A stretch of 64,000 bases of DNA, taken from the NCBI GenBank assembly GCA_002688035.1, contig NZBU01000012.1, positions 18,272 through 82,271 of the forward strand, read 5' to 3'. Each line of letters opens with the position of its first letter. Position 1 is the stretch's first letter. Below the pieces are notes generated by a model. The model did no database searches. It worked only from the letters and a program-made list of their open reading frames with translations, and was not told where the DNA came from. Positions 55,357 through 60,400 of the stretch are shown here, piece after piece. Both the position numbers and the translations under genes were made by a program. The stretch comes from Candidatus Iainarchaeum sp. (GTDB lineage Archaea > Iainarchaeota > Iainarchaeia > Iainarchaeales > GCA-2688035).

Positions 55357-55530
55357 ATGGTTAAACTGAAAAGAGGACCAACAACTACCGGTCCAAGCAG
55401 TTCGCTTGGAATAATGCGTTTCTTTGACGCAGATACCGCCGGCCCAAAGCTGAGTCCTGAATTTGTCGTAATAATCGCTGTAGCACTTATAGCTGTTGTT
55501 GTAGCTGCAAAGCTATTGCTTGGATTCTAA
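55357..55530 (+). CDS. secG: Preprotein translocase subunit Sec61beta
   Basis: 57 aa; P.S.LGIMRFFDAD..GPKLSPEFV plus TM. Not in the ORF track. Confidence 0.9.
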   Translation: MVKLKRGPTTTGPSSSLGIMRFFDADTAGPKLSPEFVVIIAVALIAVVVAAKLLLGF

Positions 55531-56495
55531 AGAGTTGAGCGTTCTTTTTCAACGAGTTGCTTTGCTTTCTTTATTTCGCTTGGATAATGCTTTCCTCTGT
55601 AAAGAACCTTTGCTTCAGCTTCACTTGCATTAAAGGCTTTCTTCAATATTTCTGTTGCCTTTTCGTGGTCAAAGCGCTTGCAGGAAACGACATCTATTTT
55701 TGCAAATCCCTGCAAAGGATAGGTGTGAATTGTGATGTGTGATTCAGCTATGATCACAAAACCGCTTAGGCCTGAGTCCTCTTTCTTTGGCGCCTTATAT
55801 TCTATGATATGTGCTTCTGAAATTTTTTGCATTCCAATTTTTGCAGGAAACTCGTTCAAAATCTTTTCAACAAACTTTTTATCCCCAAGTTTCTTTGCAT
55901 TGCACTTGTACAAGTCCAAAGCGAGCTGTGGCCCGTAGTCTGCACTAAATTTTTCGAGAAAAAGTGGCATTGCCTTATCAATTAAATTGTAAGCCAGGTC
56001 AAATGCGAAGAGCAGGAAAAAGTATTCAAAGTTTCCTGTTACAAAGCCGATTGCAATGGCTCCAATCTCTAGTGAGAGCCTTACACTAACCACTTTCTCC
56101 ACAAGCCTATTCACACTTTTATCTTTTTCCTTTATCTTATCAATAAAATCGTTTAGTATTTCATCTAAGAAACCGAGTAGCAAGAATATTACTAAAAATG
56201 GAAAGTTGATCGCCGGGAAGCCAAAGAGAGAAGCAAAAATGAATAGGGCTGCCACTGCAAACTGGTGCTCCCGTGAATCAATCTTTCCAGCTATAAGCAC
56301 ACCAATAGTAATTGCAATAATGATTGTTGCAAACTCGGTTGAAATGGTAATAAGAAATCCTGCCAATAGGCCATAGGTTATACCTGTTAGGTATGGTAGC
56401 ACAGGGTGCTTTGACTTGAATGGCTCATCAACAAAGTTGTCTGTCATCTTTGTCAGCAGGCCATCCAGAAAAGCTAGCAGGTAGAAAAAAATCAC
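55527..56495 (-). CDS. speD: Fusion of an N-terminal polytopic membrane domain and a pyruvoyl-dependent S-adenosylmethionine decarboxylase
   Basis: About 6 hydrophobic helices, then G.QL.LDLY.C, GLSG..IIAESH.TIHTYP and D..SC. Confidence 0.85.
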   Translation of the reverse strand: MIFFYLLAFLDGLLTKMTDNFVDEPFKSKHPVLPYLTGITYGLLAGFLITISTEFATIIIAITIGVLIAGKIDSREHQFAVAALFIFASLFGFPAINFPFLVIFLLLGFLDEILNDFIDKIKEKDKSVNRLVEKVVSVRLSLEIGAIAIGFVTGNFEYFFLLFAFDLAYNLIDKAMPLFLEKFSADYGPQLALDLYKCNAKKLGDKKFVEKILNEFPAKIGMQKISEAHIIEYKAPKKEDSGLSGFVIIAESHITIHTYPLQGFAKIDVVSCKRFDHEKATEILKKAFNASEAEAKVLYRGKHYPSEIKKAKQLVEKERSTL

Positions 56496-57409
56496 AGTAC
56501 TCCCTTCTCTTTCAATGAAGCTGCAATCAGTGGGAGTGCAATTGTTGCATCACAGTGCACTTGCACACTGCTCCCTTTCTCTTTTATTTTGCCCCAGCTC
56601 TTTGCTTCTTTTGTTTGTGCTCCTGAGAGCGAACCATCGTACTCGACAGCTGTTGAAACATAAACCGCGTAATCCAAGCCATCACGAACAAGGTTTGCGC
56701 CAATAATGTGGTGCTTGCTGATTCCCCCGCCAAGGATTATTGCTGCAGTTTTCTCAGCGTTGAGTACTGTGTCAGCCAGTCTCTTCATGTCCTTTGTAAC
56801 ATCAACCACAAAGTCTGCATGCTCCTGTTTGAAAAAGTACATTTGCAATCCAATTGCCCCATCCGTAATTCCCGGGCAAAAAACAGGAATGTTGTTTTTA
56901 GTGCAGTGATGCAAAAAGCTTTCCTCAGGAAGCGTGCTTCCAATAAACTCGTTCAACTCACTAGGGCTAGTGCTCTTATCTTGAGCATATAATTCGCTGA
57001 ACCATGGCTGTATTTTTTCCTCAAGAATCTCAAAGCCTTTGTTTTCAACAAAAATGTTTCCAATTCTGTTAACTCCTTTCTTGTGGAGCTCAATGTCATC
57101 AACATTAAACGCGCCTTTCCCATAGGGCATAAAGCTCTTGATTATATCGTGGTCAATACTTCCAGCAGTTGTGACGATTGCATCAACAAACTTTTTCTCA
57201 CACATCTCCCTCACTATTCCGCGCAGGCCTGATGCCATCATATTCGCGGTAAACCCAAGAAATATGGTGCAGTTCTCTTTTTTCATTTGTTCAATAAGCT
57301 CAACGGCTTCAGCAAGGTGCGATGCCTGGAACCCAGTGTCTTTCATCTGCCCAATAATATCTGCAGCGCCTTGCTTGTTGTTCAATTTAATATCGCTAAT
57401 CTTTTCCAT
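56492..57409 (-). CDS. dys: Deoxyhypusine synthase
   Basis: TGFQA, FTANM.ASGLR, NRIGN, TDG, GGGISKHH, DGSLSGA..EA.SWGK, DATI. Confidence 0.97.
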   Translation of the reverse strand: MEKISDIKLNNKQGAADIIGQMKDTGFQASHLAEAVELIEQMKKENCTIFLGFTANMMASGLRGIVREMCEKKFVDAIVTTAGSIDHDIIKSFMPYGKGAFNVDDIELHKKGVNRIGNIFVENKGFEILEEKIQPWFSELYAQDKSTSPSELNEFIGSTLPEESFLHHCTKNNIPVFCPGITDGAIGLQMYFFKQEHADFVVDVTKDMKRLADTVLNAEKTAAIILGGGISKHHIIGANLVRDGLDYAVYVSTAVEYDGSLSGAQTKEAKSWGKIKEKGSSVQVHCDATIALPLIAASLKEKGVL

Positions 57410-57414
57410 TTTTT

Positions 57415-57510
57415 ACCACCTCCAATTATATCTAGAAAAATTAGTGCAATGAAACTTTGTTAGGTGGTCTTGGTTTCATAGAAGAATTTGCTCCGAAAGT
57501 GTATTTAAAG
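57415..57510 (-). promoter_or_regulatory. dys leader: TATA box, leaderless uORF MKPRPPNKVSLH (57479-57441) and anti-SD/SD pair
   Basis: TTTAAATA at 57509-57502; ACCACCT (57468-62) is complementary to SD AGGTGGT (57421-15). Confidence 0.7.
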
Positions 57511-57526
57511 CTTTCATTTGGCTTTT

Positions 57527-60400
57527 TTAGGCCTTTAATTCGATTGCAAACTCTCTTTCCAGCAGCGTCTCCATTTTCTTGCCTTCAACCACTTTCATCT
57601 TGGTGTTGGTGCCTTCCTCAATCTCTTTCTGGTATTTCTTGAGGAATTCTGGATCACTGCTAGCAATAAGAAGCTCTACTGTTTGCTGTGGCACAAGCTT
57701 TGCTTTTTTTCTCTCGTCCTGGATTTTCCTGCGCAGCTCCTGCAGCCCCCACTCTTCTTTGAGTGCGGCATCAGTTTCTGTGCTAAGCAAAGCAATTACT
57801 CCTGCAACCTCTGTTTCAGCATACTGGCCCTTAGGCTTTGCCTTTACCTCAACAGCCTTTTTCACATTACATGACCTTGCAATAATTGGCAGAACATTCT
57901 TGAATTCTTTTCCTGTCTTTGAAACAATTGCAACTTCTTTGAGAGGCCATCTTCTCCTCAATTTCTCTTGCTCCCTTAGAGCAAGAACCGCCTGCACAAT
58001 ATCTATTGCATTAGCCATCTCTTTCTCAAGTTTCTCATTAACCATCTCTTTGTTGGTTGTGGGTAGTCCAAGCAAATGAACTGAGTCTGGTGCTTTTCCA
58101 ACTGCAGTCTGTTTTAATTGCTGGTATAAGTGTTCTGTTATATGCGGGGCAATTGGCGCAAGCAGTCTTAAGAGCGTGTCCAAGCAAACGCTCATCGTCC
58201 TGTTCACTGCATCATCCTCACGGGCCCTAACAAGCTTTATATATGTTCTGGAGAAATCCTCCATTACAAATTTCTCGATTGCCTGCACCCCCTTGTAGTA
58301 AGTGTAGGTCTCGTAAGCGTCAATGGCATCATTCACCGTGCTATAGAGCCTGCTGAGAATCCACTTATCCTCTACTTCCAACTCTTTTGTGTTCAATGGG
58401 CTAGAGTCAAGCAGTTTTACATCAAGGTACATGCTTGCATAATTGTAAGTGTTGAATAGAACATTGAAGAACTTGCCAATATCCCTAAAGTTATCCCAAT
58501 TAAATGCAAAGTCCTCTCCTCTAGAACTCTGCACAAGGTAGTAGCGCAGGAAGTCGGTGTTGTACTTTTCAATAACTTCTTTTGGCGAAACAATGTTTCC
58601 CTGGCTCTTTGACATCTTCCTTTTGTTCAAATCAAGAACAAGACCGTGAACCACAATATTCTTGAACGGCTTTTTGTCAAATGCAATTGTGCTAAGTATG
58701 AGCTCTGAGTTCCACCAGCCCCGGAACTGGTCTGTTCCCTCCCAATTCAAGTCTGCGGGCCAAAACTTTTCAAATAGCTTTTTGTCACGAGGATATTCAA
58801 GCGCAGCCCAACTACTTACCCCTGAGTCAAACCAAACATCAAGAATTTCTGAAACCCTTTGCATCTCCTTCCCACACTTGCACTTTACCTTTACTTTGTC
58901 AATCATTGGCTTGTGCGGATCTGGAATCTTTTGCCCAGTTTCTTTTTCCAACTCATCAACAGAACCAAACACGCGCTGTTCTCCACATTCACACTTCCAA
59001 ACAGGAACAGGGCTTCCCCAATATCTTGCTCTTGAAATCGGCCAGTCTCCCAAATTCTCTAACCAGTCATGCATTCTTCCCTGCATAAACTTTGGAACCC
59101 AGTTGACTTCCCTGTTAAGTGAAACCATCTTCTTCCTAATTTTTTCAACATTGAAAAAATATTGAGGGAGTGCGAGCATCAGTAGCGGGCTTTTGCATCT
59201 CCAGCAAAGAGGATAGTCGTGAGTATAATCATGCTTGTAGACAAGCGCACCCATTTCCTCCAAATCTGCTATAATATCTTTGTCAACAACCCTTGCTTTT
59301 TCACCAGCATACTTTCCGGCCTCTTCTTTGAGCGAGCCATCTATGTTCACAGGGTTTATTGCCGGCAAACCAGCTTTTCTTCCTTCATCAAAATCCTCTT
59401 TTCCATGGCCAGGCGCGGTATGAACCAAACCAGTTCCTTCATCCAGATTTACATGTCGCTCACTCAATATTACACGATAAGCGTTTTTCAGTTTTCCAAG
59501 TTTTAGGTTAGGGGTTAAAGGGTTCTTATACTGTGTTCCATCAAGCTCTTTTCCCTTAACAGTTTTCTCTATAGAGAAGCCGGCCTCAATACTATCCATT
59601 AATTCCTGTACTTTTTCCTTCGCAATAATCCAGGTTTCTCCATTACTCATTTTCACAAAGTCGTACTCGTATTTTGGGTGCACCATTATCCCCATGTTTC
59701 CAGGTAGAGTCCATGGCGTTGTCGTCCAAATCAAAAAATAAGTGTTCTCCAAGTTCTTTGCCTTGAATTTCACATAGACTGCGGTATCAGTTTGCTTGCT
59801 GTACTCAATTTCGTTAAATGAAACAACTGTTTCGCAGTGCGGGCAAACATGTACAGGGTATATTCCTTCTGTAAGAAATCCTTTATCCGCTCCCTGTTTG
59901 AATGTCCACCAAACAGTGTCAATATACTCGCGACTCAGTGTAAGATATGGGTTCTCCCAATCCATCCAAATCCCGAGGTTTTGGAATTCCCCATTCATTA
60001 CATTAATAAATTCTGTTGCAAAGTGCCTGCACTCTTTTGTGAATTTCTCAACACCATAAGTTTCAATATCTTCCTTGCACTTAAAGCCGTGCTTTTGCTC
60101 AACCTTTATTTCTGTTGGAACTCCGTGCGTATCGTATCCTGCGCGGGCAAAAACATTGTAACCCATCATCCTGCGCGAGCGAATGCTAACATCCTTCAGA
60201 ATCTTGTTAAGGGCTGTTCCCATGTGGATATGACCTGTTGCGTAAGGGGGACCGTCCATAAAATAGTATGGCTTCTTCTGTTTGGAAGACTGGACCTTAA
60301 CCTTGTCGGCAATCTTCTCTTTGGCCCAGAACTTCTTGATTACATTCTCCTTTTCTCCGGAGTATGCTTCCAACTGCTTTTTTTCGCTCACATCATTCAC
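57527..60400 (-). CDS. ileS: Isoleucine--tRNA ligase (archaeal type)
   Basis: DGPPYATG.IHMG, WTTTPWTLP, GTGLVHTAPGHG, DW.ISR.RYWG, KMSKS. Confidence 0.97.
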   Translation of the reverse strand: MNDVSEKKQLEAYSGEKENVIKKFWAKEKIADKVKVQSSKQKKPYYFMDGPPYATGHIHMGTALNKILKDVSIRSRRMMGYNVFARAGYDTHGVPTEIKVEQKHGFKCKEDIETYGVEKFTKECRHFATEFINVMNGEFQNLGIWMDWENPYLTLSREYIDTVWWTFKQGADKGFLTEGIYPVHVCPHCETVVSFNEIEYSKQTDTAVYVKFKAKNLENTYFLIWTTTPWTLPGNMGIMVHPKYEYDFVKMSNGETWIIAKEKVQELMDSIEAGFSIEKTVKGKELDGTQYKNPLTPNLKLGKLKNAYRVILSERHVNLDEGTGLVHTAPGHGKEDFDEGRKAGLPAINPVNIDGSLKEEAGKYAGEKARVVDKDIIADLEEMGALVYKHDYTHDYPLCWRCKSPLLMLALPQYFFNVEKIRKKMVSLNREVNWVPKFMQGRMHDWLENLGDWPISRARYWGSPVPVWKCECGEQRVFGSVDELEKETGQKIPDPHKPMIDKVKVKCKCGKEMQRVSEILDVWFDSGVSSWAALEYPRDKKLFEKFWPADLNWEGTDQFRGWWNSELILSTIAFDKKPFKNIVVHGLVLDLNKRKMSKSQGNIVSPKEVIEKYNTDFLRYYLVQSSRGEDFAFNWDNFRDIGKFFNVLFNTYNYASMYLDVKLLDSSPLNTKELEVEDKWILSRLYSTVNDAIDAYETYTYYKGVQAIEKFVMEDFSRTYIKLVRAREDDAVNRTMSVCLDTLLRLLAPIAPHITEHLYQQLKQTAVGKAPDSVHLLGLPTTNKEMVNEKLEKEMANAIDIVQAVLALREQEKLRRRWPLKEVAIVSKTGKEFKNVLPIIARSCNVKKAVEVKAKPKGQYAETEVAGVIALLSTETDAALKEEWGLQELRRKIQDERKKAKLVPQQTVELLIASSDPEFLKKYQKEIEEGTNTKMKVVEGKKMETLLEREFAIELKA

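What the first reader, a model, noticed from the sequence alone, without database searches (positions are those of the whole stretch)
57409..57510. Candidate aIF5A/polyamine-sensing translational attenuator: a Pro-Pro uORF whose stall codons are the anti-SD of deoxyhypusine synthase
Seen: a BRE/TATA box (GAAAGC-TTTAAATA, TATA at 57509-57502) lies about 23 nt upstream of an ATG, the geometry of a leaderless mRNA. That ATG opens MKPRPPNKVSLH* (57479-57441), which ends 31 nt before dys. The Arg-Pro-Pro codons (agA CCA CCT) contain ACCACCT, a perfect 7-nt complement of the dys SD core AGGTGGT. ATGAAAC/GTTTCAT form a 7-bp stem whose loop holds this anti-SD, giving a possible H-type pseudoknot. Established: DHS uses spermidine to modify a/eIF5A, which rescues ribosomes at diprolyl motifs; PPN is a strong EF-P-dependent stall motif in E. 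coli. eIF5A/polyamine-responsive uORFs exist in eukaryotes and Pro-rich leaders in bacteria. Inference: when modified aIF5A is scarce, a ribosome stalls on RPPN, covers the anti-SD and frees the dys SD, inducing dys and the coupled speD. I know of no such feedback loop described in archaea.
Basis: partly seen in the sequence, partly recalled or inferred. Interest (0 to 1): 0.92.

Follow-up and report, generated by a model that had tools for sequence, protein, structure and literature searches.

The report
Conserved diprolyl leader peptide before dys
A tiny upstream reading frame whose Arg-Pro-Pro-Asn core is conserved sits at the very start of the messenger for the enzyme that activates the proline-stall rescue factor aIF5A in a group of DPANN archaea, so it is a good candidate for a stall-sensing leader peptide in archaea.

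Summary
On the minus strand, TATA (57509-57502) lies 22 nt before an ATG. This is the modal leaderless spacing in this genome. The ATG opens MKPRPPNKVSLH* upstream of dys-speD.

In the Iainarchaeota family of the window, 11 of 21 assessable genomes carry a leaderless mini-ORF at this position:
- Five encode an invariant RPPN core: MKPRPPN*, MHRPPN*, MLKLRPPN*, MLKLRPPNCN* and the window's copy.
- Six encode MFTLPI*/MFTLPT*.

Further copies occur in three other families and one metagenome contig, always directly before dys.

Substitutions are almost all synonymous (RPPN 5 of 5; MFTLPI 8 of 9). Indels come in threes, and the TATA-ATG spacing is fixed. Selection therefore acts on the peptide.

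The leader persists where dys is replaced by a 43%-identical type and where speD is replaced by a PLP decarboxylase.

- The 7-nt anti-SD match is perfect only in the window.
- Real codons pair with the SD no better than synonymous ones.
- The 7-bp stem and the pseudoknot are not conserved.

aIF5A or polyamine sensing is a well-motivated inference, but no expression data exist.

Verdict: a probable translated regulatory leader peptide, and a new variant of a known kind.

The parts
57510..57515 (-). Purine-rich BRE-like element GAAAGC directly upstream of the TATA box
   Evidence: The same GAAAGC/GAAGGC element is aligned in the 5 RPPN-class leaders. The name BRE is my reading, not a test.
57502..57509 (-). 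TATA box TTTAAATA of the dys-speD promoter
   Evidence: It is invariant in all 5 RPPN-class leaders and near-invariant in the MFTLPI class. Genome-wide, the first ATG after TTTAAATA is most often 22 nt away, as here (8 of 91 sites). Of the 20 sites with an ATG at 18-27 nt, 12 open ORFs of 50 aa or more.
57441..57479 (-). Leaderless upstream ORF MKPRPPNKVSLH* (12 codons plus TAA)
   Evidence: Positional homologues are MKPRPPN* (G004), MHRPPN* (G010), MLKLRPPN* (G006) and MLKLRPPNCN* (G014). The window copy has lost the stop that follows Asn in three of the relatives.
57459..57470 (-). Conserved core codons AGA CCA CCT AAC (Arg-Pro-Pro-Asn)
   Evidence: The 5 copies show at least 5 substitutions, all synonymous and none changing an amino acid (binomial P about 0.001).
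57462..57468 (-). ACCACCT, a perfect complement of the dys SD core (the 'anti-SD')
   Evidence: The helix is worth -8.3 kcal/mol and is present in the MFE. The match is perfect only in the window, and the codons are not tuned for pairing in relatives.
57449..57455 (-). GTTTCAT, the 3' arm of a 7-bp stem with the uORF start ATGAAAC (57479-57473)
   Evidence: -3.1 kcal/mol. It is not conserved in G004 or G010. Chance expectation is 1.4%.
57436..57440 (-). T5 run directly after the uORF stop; a possible archaeal termination or pause signal
   Evidence: All 5 RPPN-class leaders have a T4-T6 run starting 39-42 nt from the uORF ATG in the alignment. In one search, G004's longest run was scored at nt 29 because it has two T4 runs. 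Across all leaders, T runs of 5 or more occur in 9 of 15 against 6.0 expected from dinucleotide shuffles, which is not significant.
57415..57423 (-). Shine-Dalgarno GGAGGTGGT of dys
   Evidence: It is complementary to the 16S 3' end ...GGATCACCTCCT found at G000:C10. SD-like 4-mers peak at -14 to -9 before ORFs in this genome.
56492..57409 (-). dys, deoxyhypusine synthase (305 aa)
   Evidence: Pfam PF01916, E 3e-111. NCBIfam NF002294 364 bits (cut-off 350) and TIGR00321 339 bits (cut-off 304).
55527..56495 (-). speD fusion: an N-terminal domain of about 190 aa with no family match, plus a C-terminal AdoMet decarboxylase. Its start overlaps the dys stop.
   Evidence: PF02675, residues 191-301; TIGR03330 82.6 bits, cut-off 75.65. 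The same arrangement is found in 11 of the 13 uORF-bearing loci compared; the other two contigs end shortly after dys.
57527..60400 (-). ileS, isoleucine-tRNA ligase; the upstream neighbour and not part of the element
   Evidence: TIGR00392 837 bits, cut-off 621. In G038 and G043 the leader stands behind a divergent gene instead.

Best explanation
The element is a translated, leaderless regulatory leader peptide (uORF) of the dys-polyamine operon.

Proposed sequence of events:
1. Transcription starts at or next to the ATG at 57479, 22 nt after the TATA box.
2. A ribosome loads on the 5'-terminal AUG and translates a peptide whose selected part is Arg-Pro-Pro-Asn.
3. Pro-Pro-X peptide-bond formation needs a/eIF5A, and aIF5A needs the deoxyhypusine made by DHS from a polyamine. 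Ribosome dwell time on the uORF should therefore report the supply of modified aIF5A, and indirectly of polyamine.
4. A long-lived ribosome on the first 30 nt or so then changes expression of dys and the coupled decarboxylase gene.

In the window, the most concrete coupling route is release of the strong dys SD from pairing with the Pro codons. This coupling step is the weakest part of the model and may differ between lineages.

Shown: the uORF, its position, its peptide-level conservation and its exclusive link to dys.

Inferred: translation, stalling, aIF5A dependence, and the direction and means of coupling.
For: 1. Conservation
- In the family of the window, 11 of 21 assessable genomes carry a mini-ORF at the same place: 5 RPPN class and 6 MFTLPI/T class. 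The other 10 have dys directly behind ileS. Two further genomes were not assessable.
- Outside the family there are copies in G038, G175 and G043 (variant MHCIFTQYPI*) and on one metagenome contig, L032.

2. Peptide-level selection
- RPPN core: 5 of 5 minimal substitutions are synonymous (P about 0.001).
- MFTLPI class: 8 of 9 are synonymous or keep the stop (P 0.0002). Without the copy found only by the pattern it is 7 of 8 (P 0.0008).
- Variable sites in the MFTLPI class fall at codon position 1 in 1 of 6 codons, position 2 in 1 of 6, and position 3 in 6 of 6.
- N-terminal length differences in the RPPN class are 3, 6 and 9 nt.
- In G043 the ATG became ATA, and an in-frame ATG 9 nt upstream takes over together with a shifted TATA.
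- Identity to consensus is 0.92 in the uORF against 0.56-0.63 in its flanks.

3. Leaderless geometry
- TATA-ATG spacing is fixed at 22 nt (RPPN) or 23 nt (8 of the 9 MFTLPI copies; G175 has a TTTAAAAA box instead of TTTAAATA).
- 22 nt is the genome-wide mode. Of the 20 TATA sites with an ATG at 18-27 nt, 12 open long ORFs.
- Two pattern hits in other genomes were ordinary leaderless genes.

4. Specific link to dys
- The MFTLPI pattern hit 8 of 215 genomes of the phylum, once each, always directly before dys. The reversed control gave 1 hit.
- The leader stays with dys when the upstream gene is divergent.
- It stays when dys is a 42-44% identical type (G006, G014, G018, G022).
- It stays when speD is replaced by a PLP-dependent decarboxylase.

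5. Pathway logic
- aIF5A is present in G000.
- Polyproline pausing is reported in Haloferax ribosome profiling (PMC7261190, passage read).
- eIF5A is needed at a PPW uORF motif of AZIN1 and in termination (PMC8705083, passages read).

6. Coupling in the window
- The SD-uORF helix is in the MFE.
- The mean unpaired probability of the RBS rises from 0.43 to 0.57-0.62 with 30-33 nt covered, and to 0.95 with 49 nt covered.
Against: - No RNA or ribosome data exist for this lineage, so the TSS and translation are inferred.
- The larger class (MFTLPI*) has one Pro and no Pro-Pro. An aIF5A explanation there rests on the shared Pro two residues before the stop.
- Two of 5 RPPN uORFs, including the window's, have lost the stop after Asn.
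- Ten of 21 family genomes manage without any such leader.
- The anti-SD pairing is not conserved. Duplex energies are -12.3 kcal/mol in the window and -8.4 to -9.6 in relatives, about the mean of synonymous variants.
- The predicted change in RBS access on uORF occupancy is +0.52, +0.03 and +0.07 in the three RPPN-class leaders scored. The MFTLPI class ranges from -0.32 to +0.20.
- The whole-leader fold is not more stable than shuffles (z -0.45).
- All sequences are related MAGs, so the statistics overstate independence.
Confidence: 0.5

Rival explanations
1. The uORF is a direct polyamine sensor of the MAGDIS type. The very short nascent peptide (6-7 residues, with Pro two residues before the stop) slows termination when polyamine is high. 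The ribosome parked at the 5' end then lowers expression of dys and the decarboxylase. aIF5A is not the sensed quantity.
For: - Both classes are 6-8 codons long in most copies and share Pro at position -2 from the stop: PN*, PI*, PT*.
- The second cistron is AdoMetDC or another decarboxylase.
- The mammalian AdoMetDC uORF is a hexapeptide near the 5' end. It stalls at termination in a polyamine-dependent way (PMC2811004, passages read).
- In several MFTLPI-class leaders, occupancy of the uORF is predicted to lower RBS access: L005, L008, L009 and L032.
Against: - The window's copy and G014's copy have moved the stop 5 and 2 codons away from Pro-Asn while keeping RPPN. This points to an elongation event rather than a termination event.
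- There is no sequence likeness to MAGDIS.
- There is no scanning in archaea, so the eukaryotic blocking logic does not carry over.
Confidence: 0.15
2. Coupling is transcriptional. The uORF ribosome controls whether RNA polymerase terminates at the T run that follows the uORF, either intrinsically or through aCPSF1/FttA. This would resemble bacterial tna or pyrBI attenuation. SD pairing would be irrelevant.
For: - All 5 RPPN leaders have a T4-T6 run starting 39-42 nt after the uORF ATG, at an aligned position (longest-run positions). In the window it is 57440-57436.
- Nine of 15 leaders have a T run of 5 or more between the uORF and the SD.
- In G038 and G043 the run cannot serve a co-directional upstream gene, because that gene is divergent.
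- U-tracts and aCPSF1/FttA terminate archaeal transcription (PMC8716108, PMC7515710, PMC11616081; search listing and abstract starts only).
Against: - Nine of 15 is not above the 6.0 expected from dinucleotide-preserving shuffles. One MFTLPI-class leader (L079, G018) has no T run longer than 2.
- Where ileS lies upstream, the run could simply be its terminator.
- No attenuator of this type is known to me in archaea (recalled).
Confidence: 0.12
3. The uORF is translated but senses nothing. It is a constitutive 'starter' cistron of a leaderless transcript that delivers ribosomes to, or opens, the SD-led dys start. The peptide is constrained only to be translated and released quickly.
For: - The leaderless first cistron followed by an SD-led gene matches how this genome is organised: both leaderless and SD signals are present.
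- Half of the family does without the uORF.
Against: - A Pro-Pro-Asn core is the opposite of a fast-translating peptide, yet it is the invariant part.
- Two unrelated peptide classes are each held constant.
- The 31-60 nt between the uORF stop and dys (about 90 nt in the G043 variant) is long for termination-reinitiation.
Confidence: 0.1
4. The Pro codons sense charged tRNA-Pro or proline supply, as in classical amino-acid attenuation or the mycobacterial leaderless polycysteine uORFs.
For: Leaderless short ORFs with repeated codons act as amino-acid sensors in mycobacteria (10.1101/834739; search listing and abstract start only). The window has three Pro codons among 12.
Against: - The downstream genes are not proline genes.
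- The MFTLPI class has a single Pro.
- Arg and Asn flanking the Pro-Pro are as conserved as the prolines.
Confidence: 0.05
5. The region is not translated. The conserved 12-21 nt are an RNA or DNA element, such as an operator at the TSS or a protein-binding hairpin, or the ORF arises by chance.
For: - In the MFTLPI class the uORF start ATGTTTACC is complementary to a conserved downstream GGTAAACAT-like element. This holds in 7 of 9 copies, some with G-U pairs or one mismatch.
- In the window ATGAAAC pairs with GTTTCAT.
Against: - The nucleotide sequence varies exactly where the peptide does not: third positions, and AGG to CGG.
- The start, the frame and a stop are kept in all 15 copies, through indels of 3, 6 and 9 nt.
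- No Rfam family matches.
Confidence: 0.05

Closest known systems
AZIN1 (and ODC-homologue) uCC upstream conserved coding region with a Pro-Pro-Trp motif, sensed through eIF5A and polyamines (eukaryotes)
   Same: Both are a short upstream coding region with a conserved Pro-Pro-X motif in front of a polyamine-pathway gene. The a/eIF5A family factor is the natural reader of the motif (PMC8705083, passages read).
   Different: - Here the organism is an archaeon with no cap and no scanning, so ribosome queuing to select a start cannot apply.
- The uORF is leaderless, has an AUG start and is 6-12 codons long.
- The regulated gene is the aIF5A-modifying enzyme itself.
- Nothing is experimentally tested.
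MAGDIS hexapeptide uORF of mammalian AdoMetDC mRNA
   Same: Both are a tiny (6-7 codon) uORF at the extreme 5' end of a messenger that encodes AdoMetDC. The peptide sequence, not only the ORF, is what matters (PMC2811004, passages read).
   Different: - There is no sequence similarity.
- AdoMetDC is the second cistron here, after dys.
- The stall in MAGDIS is at termination, whereas two RPPN copies have displaced stops.
- The coupling logic must differ in a non-scanning system.
Bacterial leader-peptide attenuators that free a sequestered SD (ermC type), and EF-P-dependent proline-rich leaders
   Same: In the window, the leader codons can pair with the SD of the downstream gene. A ribosome parked on them is predicted to open it. 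EF-P pausing in leader peptides affects attenuation in E. coli (PMC5021804; listing and abstract start only).
   Different: Pairing is neither conserved nor tuned by codon choice in relatives. There is no SD for the leader itself, because it is leaderless. The domain of life differs.
Mycobacterial leaderless polycysteine short ORFs (cysteine-responsive attenuators)
   Same: Both are a leaderless short ORF as the first cistron of an operon. The ORF acts in cis through ribosome dwell time on a run of special codons (10.1101/834739; listing and abstract start only).
   Different: Those sense an amino-acid supply for its own biosynthetic operon. Here the downstream genes modify a translation factor and make polyamine, so the sensed quantity would be the factor's activity.

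Membership tests
Regulatory leader peptide / stall-sensing uORF (general class) | A short ORF upstream of, and on the same transcript as, the regulated gene | tested here: met
   The ORF at 57479-57441 lies between the only TATA box of the spacer and dys. The same layout is seen in 15 leaders. The shared transcript is inferred from the promoter geometry.
Regulatory leader peptide / stall-sensing uORF (general class) | Conservation at the peptide level rather than the nucleotide level | tested here: met
   RPPN core: 5 of 5 substitutions synonymous. MFTLPI class: 8 of 9. Codon-position periodicity is 1/6, 1/6, 6/6. Indels are multiples of 3.
Regulatory leader peptide / stall-sensing uORF (general class) | The uORF is translated and the ribosome pauses on it | not testable with these tools
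   No RNA holder was listed for this sequence. This needs ribosome profiling or toeprinting.
Regulatory leader peptide / stall-sensing uORF (general class) | The pause changes expression of the downstream gene | tested here: inconclusive
   Predicted RBS opening is clear in the window (0.43 to 0.57-0.95) but inconsistent in 12 relatives. T-run enrichment is not significant.
a/eIF5A- and polyamine-responsive uORF (AZIN1 uCC type) | A conserved Pro-Pro-X motif in the upstream coding region | tested here: met
   RPPN is invariant in 5 of 5 copies of the window's class. It is not present in the sister class MFTLPI.
a/eIF5A- and polyamine-responsive uORF (AZIN1 uCC type) | The downstream gene belongs to the polyamine/hypusine pathway | tested here: met
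   dys plus AdoMetDC, or dys plus a PLP-dependent decarboxylase in G006.
a/eIF5A- and polyamine-responsive uORF (AZIN1 uCC type) | The pause depends on eIF5A activity and on polyamine level | not testable with these tools
   Only the presence of an aIF5A gene could be shown (G000:C9:60000-60341, TIGR00037 117.8 bits).
SD-sequestration attenuator (ermC type) | Leader codons pair with the SD of the regulated gene, and this pairing is under selection (conserved or covarying) | tested here: not met
   A perfect 7-nt match exists only in the window. Real codons rank 30, 118, 166, 148 and 54 of 192 synonymous sets for duplex energy, and 29, 154 and 118 of 192 for ensemble pairing.
   Stem 1 is worth -3.1 kcal/mol and helix 2 -8.3 kcal/mol in the window. 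Stem 1 has no counterpart in G010 or G004. No pseudoknot-aware folding tool was available.
Transcription attenuator with a terminator after the leader ORF | A termination signal between the leader ORF and the regulated gene, more often than chance | tested here: inconclusive
   T runs of 5 or more occur in 9 of 15 leaders against 6.0 expected. The T run is positionally conserved within the RPPN class.
Known RNA families (Rfam 15) | A match at or above the gathering score | tested here: not met
   Only two chance-level matches in 56000-59000 (E 3.7 and 9.4, far below gathering scores).

The most novel reading that the evidence does not exclude
This would be the first nascent-chain or translation-factor-sensing leader peptide described in Archaea. 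It would form a closed homeostatic loop:
- The enzyme that activates aIF5A (DHS), together with a polyamine decarboxylase, is controlled by a leaderless Arg-Pro-Pro-Asn mini-ORF.
- Translation of that mini-ORF itself requires active aIF5A.

The sister peptide MFTLPI* would be a second, non-polyproline aIF5A- or polyamine-dependent arrest motif that evolved at the same site.
Probability: 0.4. Interest if true: 0.9.

Novelty: new variant of a known kind. Interest (0 to 1): 0.8.

Why it matters
- Stall-sensing leader peptides are textbook regulators in bacteria and eukaryotes, but I know of no characterised archaeal example (recalled). My searches found none for dys, and the 2026 review read in passages contains no occurrence of the words leader peptide, uORF or feedback.
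- A Pro-Pro uORF in front of the enzyme that makes the Pro-Pro rescue factor functional would be a very direct feedback design.
- It would show that the polyamine pathway's 'fondness for uORFs' (PMC2811004) extends to archaea by convergence.
- It would give a compact, portable reporter of aIF5A activity.
- It offers a natural experiment: two peptide classes, two DHS types and two decarboxylases behind one leader.
- It also shows that leaderless mini-ORFs in archaeal MAGs can be recognised from codon-level conservation alone.

Tried and rejected
- Rfam scan of 56000-59000 at E up to 10 gave only noise.
- Whole-leader folding stability is not unusual (z -0.45).
- Anti-SD covariation was tested two ways, by ensemble pairing and by duplex energy against all 192 synonymous RPPN codon sets. 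The real codons are unremarkable, so selection for pairing was rejected.
- A conserved 'ribosome on the uORF opens the RBS' effect was rejected as a general feature. Changes range from -0.32 to +0.52.
- T-run enrichment after the uORF is 9 of 15 against 6.0 expected, which is not significant.
- RPPN-type uORFs were sought elsewhere with a TATA-anchored pattern in 196 genomes. There were 5 hits: 3 dys leaders and 2 ordinary leaderless long genes. The control gave 2. This pattern allowed at most 9 nt before the Pro codons, so it missed G006 and G014. Those were found later by reading dys upstream regions directly.
- Upstream regions of aIF5A genes in 4 genomes have no comparable uORF.
- dys upstream regions of 19 more distant genomes of the order were fetched. 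In 18 a start could be placed, and none has either class.
- None of the loci with lower DHS identity, including contigs labelled Micrarchaeota, Thermoplasmatota or Aenigmatarchaeota, has either class. In total 10 of 60 distinct loci were positive, all from the close group. A Micrarchaeota contig (L038) has MGSRPN* but no TATA at the right distance, so I treated it as chance.
- Sequencing runs: no RNA holder was listed, and read laying was not used.
- RNAalifold on the RPPN alignment failed because of my column cut and was not repeated.
- One search used one locus in the wrong orientation. It was discarded and redone.
- Paper supplements are closed. The uORF tables of the Haloferax ribosome-profiling paper (PMC7261190) might show whether dys has a uORF there, but I could not see them.
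- Not used: structure, complex, protein-atlas and protein-database tools, because the peptides are too short.
Full report
**What is in the window.**
All features lie on the minus strand.
- ileS (60400-57527; TIGR00392 837 bits) is followed by a 117-nt spacer.
- Next comes dys (57409-56492; PF01916 E 3e-111; NCBIfam equivalogs above cut-off).
- A gene whose GTG overlaps the dys stop follows (56495-55527). Its C-terminal 110 residues are AdoMet decarboxylase.
- The spacer reads GAAAGC-TTTAAATA (57515-57502), 22 nt, ATG (57479), MKPRPPNKVSLH, TAA (57443-57441), TTTTT (57440-57436), GGAGGTGGT (57423-57415), six A, then the dys ATG.
I only correct the SD to 57423-57415 and the 3' stem arm to 57455-57449.

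**The organism.**
- The window is part of a 745-kb, 12-contig genome bin that is 61% complete and has 41% GC.
- Its closest named relatives are 'Candidatus Iainarchaeum' MAGs and archaeon GW2011_AR10 (record titles). It is therefore a DPANN archaeon of the Iainarchaeota.
- The genome uses both start modes. After an exact TTTAAATA, the first ATG is most often 22 nt away (8 of 91 sites). Of the 20 sites with an ATG at 18-27 nt, 12 open ORFs of 50 aa or more.
- TATA-like hexamers peak at -30/-29 before long ORFs. SD-like 4-mers peak sharply at -14 to -9.
- The 16S 3' end is ...GGATCACCTCCT, so the dys SD can form 9 pairs with it.
- The uORF ATG sits exactly at the modal leaderless distance.

**Chance level of the window features alone.**
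- The leader fold is not unusually stable (z -0.45).
- A complement of 7 nt or more to the RBS occurs in 4.2% of dinucleotide shuffles, and a 7-bp stem with the 5' end in 1.4%.
- Once the peptide contains Pro-Pro, pairing with a G-rich SD is almost automatic. Of 192 synonymous RPPN codon sets, 96 give a complement of 5 nt or more and 16 give 7 nt or more.
- No Rfam family matches.
- Taken alone, the window would be a weak case.

**Relatives change the picture.**
I located dys in 56 of 61 related genomes. I read its upstream region in 60 distinct loci, then in further loci fetched by pattern or by coordinates.

Two conserved mini-ORFs occupy the same position, starting 22-23 nt after the TATA box.

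*Class A (the window's class)*
- G000: MKPRPPNKVSLH*.
- G004: MKPRPPN*.
- G010: MHRPPN*.
- G006: MLKLRPPN*.
- G014: MLKLRPPNCN*.

These five come from four genera.

*Class B*
- MFTLPI* in G020, G021, G011, G018, G022, G038 (AR10), G175 and the metagenome contig L032.
- MFTLPT* in G013.
- A variant, MHCIFTQYPI*, in G043.

*Distribution*
- In the family of the window, 11 of 21 assessable genomes have a uORF (5 class A, 6 class B).
- In the other 10, dys follows ileS with little or no spacer.
- Two genomes were not assessable: in one the contig ends inside dys, and in the other no dys was found.
- The promoter and the initially transcribed region align between the two classes, so they are positional homologues.

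**The conservation is at the peptide level.**
- RPPN core: the codons are AGA/AGG/CGG, CCA/CCC/CCT, CCT/CCA and AAC. That is at least 5 substitutions, all synonymous (binomial P about 0.001 against a neutral synonymous fraction of 0.25).
- The residues before the core differ in sequence and length (6, 3 and 9 nt), always in multiples of three.
- Class B: 8 of 9 minimal substitutions are synonymous or change one stop codon to another (P 0.0002). Without G175, which only the pattern found, it is 7 of 8 (P 0.0008).
- Variable sites in class B fall at codon position 1 in 1 of 6 codons, position 2 in 1 of 6, and position 3 in 6 of 6.
- Identity to consensus is 0.92 inside the uORF against 0.63 and 0.56 in the flanks.
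- In G043 the ancestral ATG is ATA, and an in-frame ATG three codons upstream has taken over, again at leaderless distance from a TATA box.
- Caveat: the class B pattern allows only synonymous variants at most positions, so hits found only by it cannot add amino-acid changes. Six of the nine copies came from the protein-based search. G018 and G022 are dys-upstream regions of family genomes that I would have read anyway. The sequences are relatives, so the P values are indicative only.

**The leader belongs to dys.**
- The class B pattern hit 8 of 215 genomes of the phylum, once per genome, each time directly before dys. The reversed-pattern control gave 1 hit.
- In G038 and G043 the upstream gene is divergent rather than ileS.
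- In G006, G014, G018 and G022 the dys behind the same leader is only 42-44% identical to the window's dys.
- In G006 the gene overlapping the dys stop is a PLP-dependent decarboxylase of the Orn/DAP/carboxynorspermidine fold, not speD.
- The constant partners are therefore the uORF, dys and a decarboxylase.
- The more distant relatives lack both classes: 18 further upstream regions in the order, and the loci with lower DHS identity, among them contigs labelled Micrarchaeota, Thermoplasmatota or Aenigmatarchaeota.
- aIF5A genes, present in G000 and in 3 of 4 relatives searched, have ordinary short leaders.

**How it may work.**

*Shown*
- A peptide-constrained, leaderless mini-ORF at the head of the dys operon.

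*Established elsewhere*
- Pro-Pro-X synthesis needs EF-P or a/eIF5A.
- DHS makes aIF5A's deoxyhypusine from a polyamine.
- Haloferax ribosome profiling suggests polyproline pausing (PMC7261190, passage read).
- eIF5A is required at the PPW motif of the AZIN1 uCC and also speeds termination (PMC8705083, passages read).
- The AdoMetDC MAGDIS hexapeptide stalls at termination with polyamine (PMC2811004, passages read).

*Inferred*
- Dwell time on RPPN reports aIF5A or polyamine status and tunes the operon.

- In the window, the Pro codons pair with the SD (-8.3 kcal/mol, and the helix is in the MFE). Covering 30-33 nt raises mean RBS accessibility from 0.43 to 0.57-0.62. Covering 49 nt raises it to 0.95.
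- In relatives this is not a selected property. Duplex energies of the real RPPN codons with their own RBS are -9.6, -8.4, -8.7 and -8.6 kcal/mol, against -12.3 in the window.
- The ranks among 192 synonymous sets are 30 (window), 118, 166, 148 and 54. An ensemble version gives ranks 29, 154 and 118.
- The predicted accessibility changes are +0.03 and +0.07 in two other class A leaders, and -0.32 to +0.20 in class B.
- The 7-bp stem is weak (-3.1 kcal/mol) and lacks a counterpart in G004 and G010.
- SD unmasking is thus plausible for this genome but is not the conserved principle. The pseudoknot is unsupported.

**Other structural clues.**
- In class B, a downstream element (GGTAAACAT, with variants GGCAAACAT, GGTAGGCAT and GGGGTAAAT) is complementary to the first 9 nt of the uORF in 7 of 9 copies.
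- In the window the analogous pair is ATGAAAC/GTTTCAT.
- A hairpin that hides the 5' AUG after the first ribosome has loaded would suit a mechanism that depends on the pioneer ribosome.
- All 5 class A leaders carry a T4-T6 run beginning 39-42 nt from the AUG, at an aligned position. U-tracts with aCPSF1/FttA terminate archaeal transcription (PMC8716108 and others; listing and abstract starts only).
- Across all 15 leaders, however, T runs of 5 or more (9 leaders) do not exceed the dinucleotide-shuffle expectation (6.0).
- I keep transcription attenuation as a rival for the coupling step.

**Comparison with what is known, and novelty.**
- The element works like the eukaryotic eIF5A- and polyamine-responsive uORFs and like bacterial leader peptides. 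Its leaderless layout resembles the mycobacterial polycysteine uORFs (10.1101/834739; listing and abstract start only).
- It is not a member of any of these families by sequence. The defining functional features (translation, stalling, factor dependence) cannot be tested with these tools.
- I ran four searches: archaea/uORF/leaderless/hypusine; archaea/leader peptide/ribosome stalling/attenuation; deoxyhypusine synthase/upstream open reading frame/polyamine/archaea; and aIF5A/polyproline/archaea/stalling. None returned a paper describing such a leader.
- The 2026 review on proline-rescue factors, read by word search only, has no occurrence of leader peptide, uORF, feedback or polyamine.
- The library is limited and supplements were closed, so this is absence in what I could search, not proof.

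**Verdict.**
- My estimates: about 0.85 that the uORF is translated and under peptide-level selection. About 0.5 for the full statement that it is a Pro-motif pause sensor tuning dys. About 0.2 that SD unmasking is the coupling route in this genome.
- Novelty: a new variant of a known kind. Interest: 0.8.

Noticed in passing
window 55527-56495 (-): AdoMet decarboxylase is fused to an N-terminal region of about 190 aa that is hydrophobic by eye and has no Pfam or NCBIfam match. The full-length fusion aligns in most relatives (query residues 1-320).
   Followed up: partly
L096/L117 (G006), L097 (G014), L079 (G018), L082 (G022): Two deoxyhypusine synthase types only 42-44% identical sit behind the same conserved leader, even within one genus. 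In G006 the gene overlapping the dys stop is a PLP-dependent decarboxylase (weak lysA/nspC likeness) instead of speD. This suggests in-place replacement of the operon's genes under a fixed leader.
   Followed up: partly
L005, L007, L008, L009, L032, L079, L082, L085 (40-50 nt after the uORF ATG): A conserved element, GGTAAACAT with variants, is complementary to the first 9 nt of the MFTLPI uORF. Variation is by G-U pairs or a single A-C mismatch. In several leaders it abuts a second hairpin that holds the dys SD and start codon.
   Followed up: partly
L002, L003, L096, L097 (between the T run and the SD): A conserved GGAGCC(G) element lies 25-35 nt before dys in 4 of 5 RPPN-class leaders. The window lacks it and has a 14-nt shorter spacer that brings GGAG next to GTGG, creating its very strong SD.
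   Followed up: no
L018 (G008), at the ileS stop: A 7-codon ORF, MKFWQLI*, starts in an ATGA overlap with the ileS stop, 72 nt before dys. It has nucleotide likeness to the MFTLPI uORF and may be a diverged, translationally coupled version.
   Followed up: no
G000:C12:84807-85265 (about 2.5 kb beyond the window end): A spermidine-synthase domain (PF01564, 94 bits) lies inside a 722-aa open frame, so a third polyamine gene lies near the dys-speD operon.
   Followed up: no
L038/L039 (Micrarchaeota-like contigs), 113 nt before dys: A short ORF, MGSRPN*, resembles MHRPPN* but has no TATA box at leaderless distance. Probably chance.
   Followed up: partly
G000 contigs C5, C8, C11, C12 (list): Seven other short ORFs (1-47 codons) start 18-27 nt after an exact TTTAAATA, for example MSILRFKDVICV on C12. 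They may be further leaderless mini-ORFs or chance.
   Followed up: no
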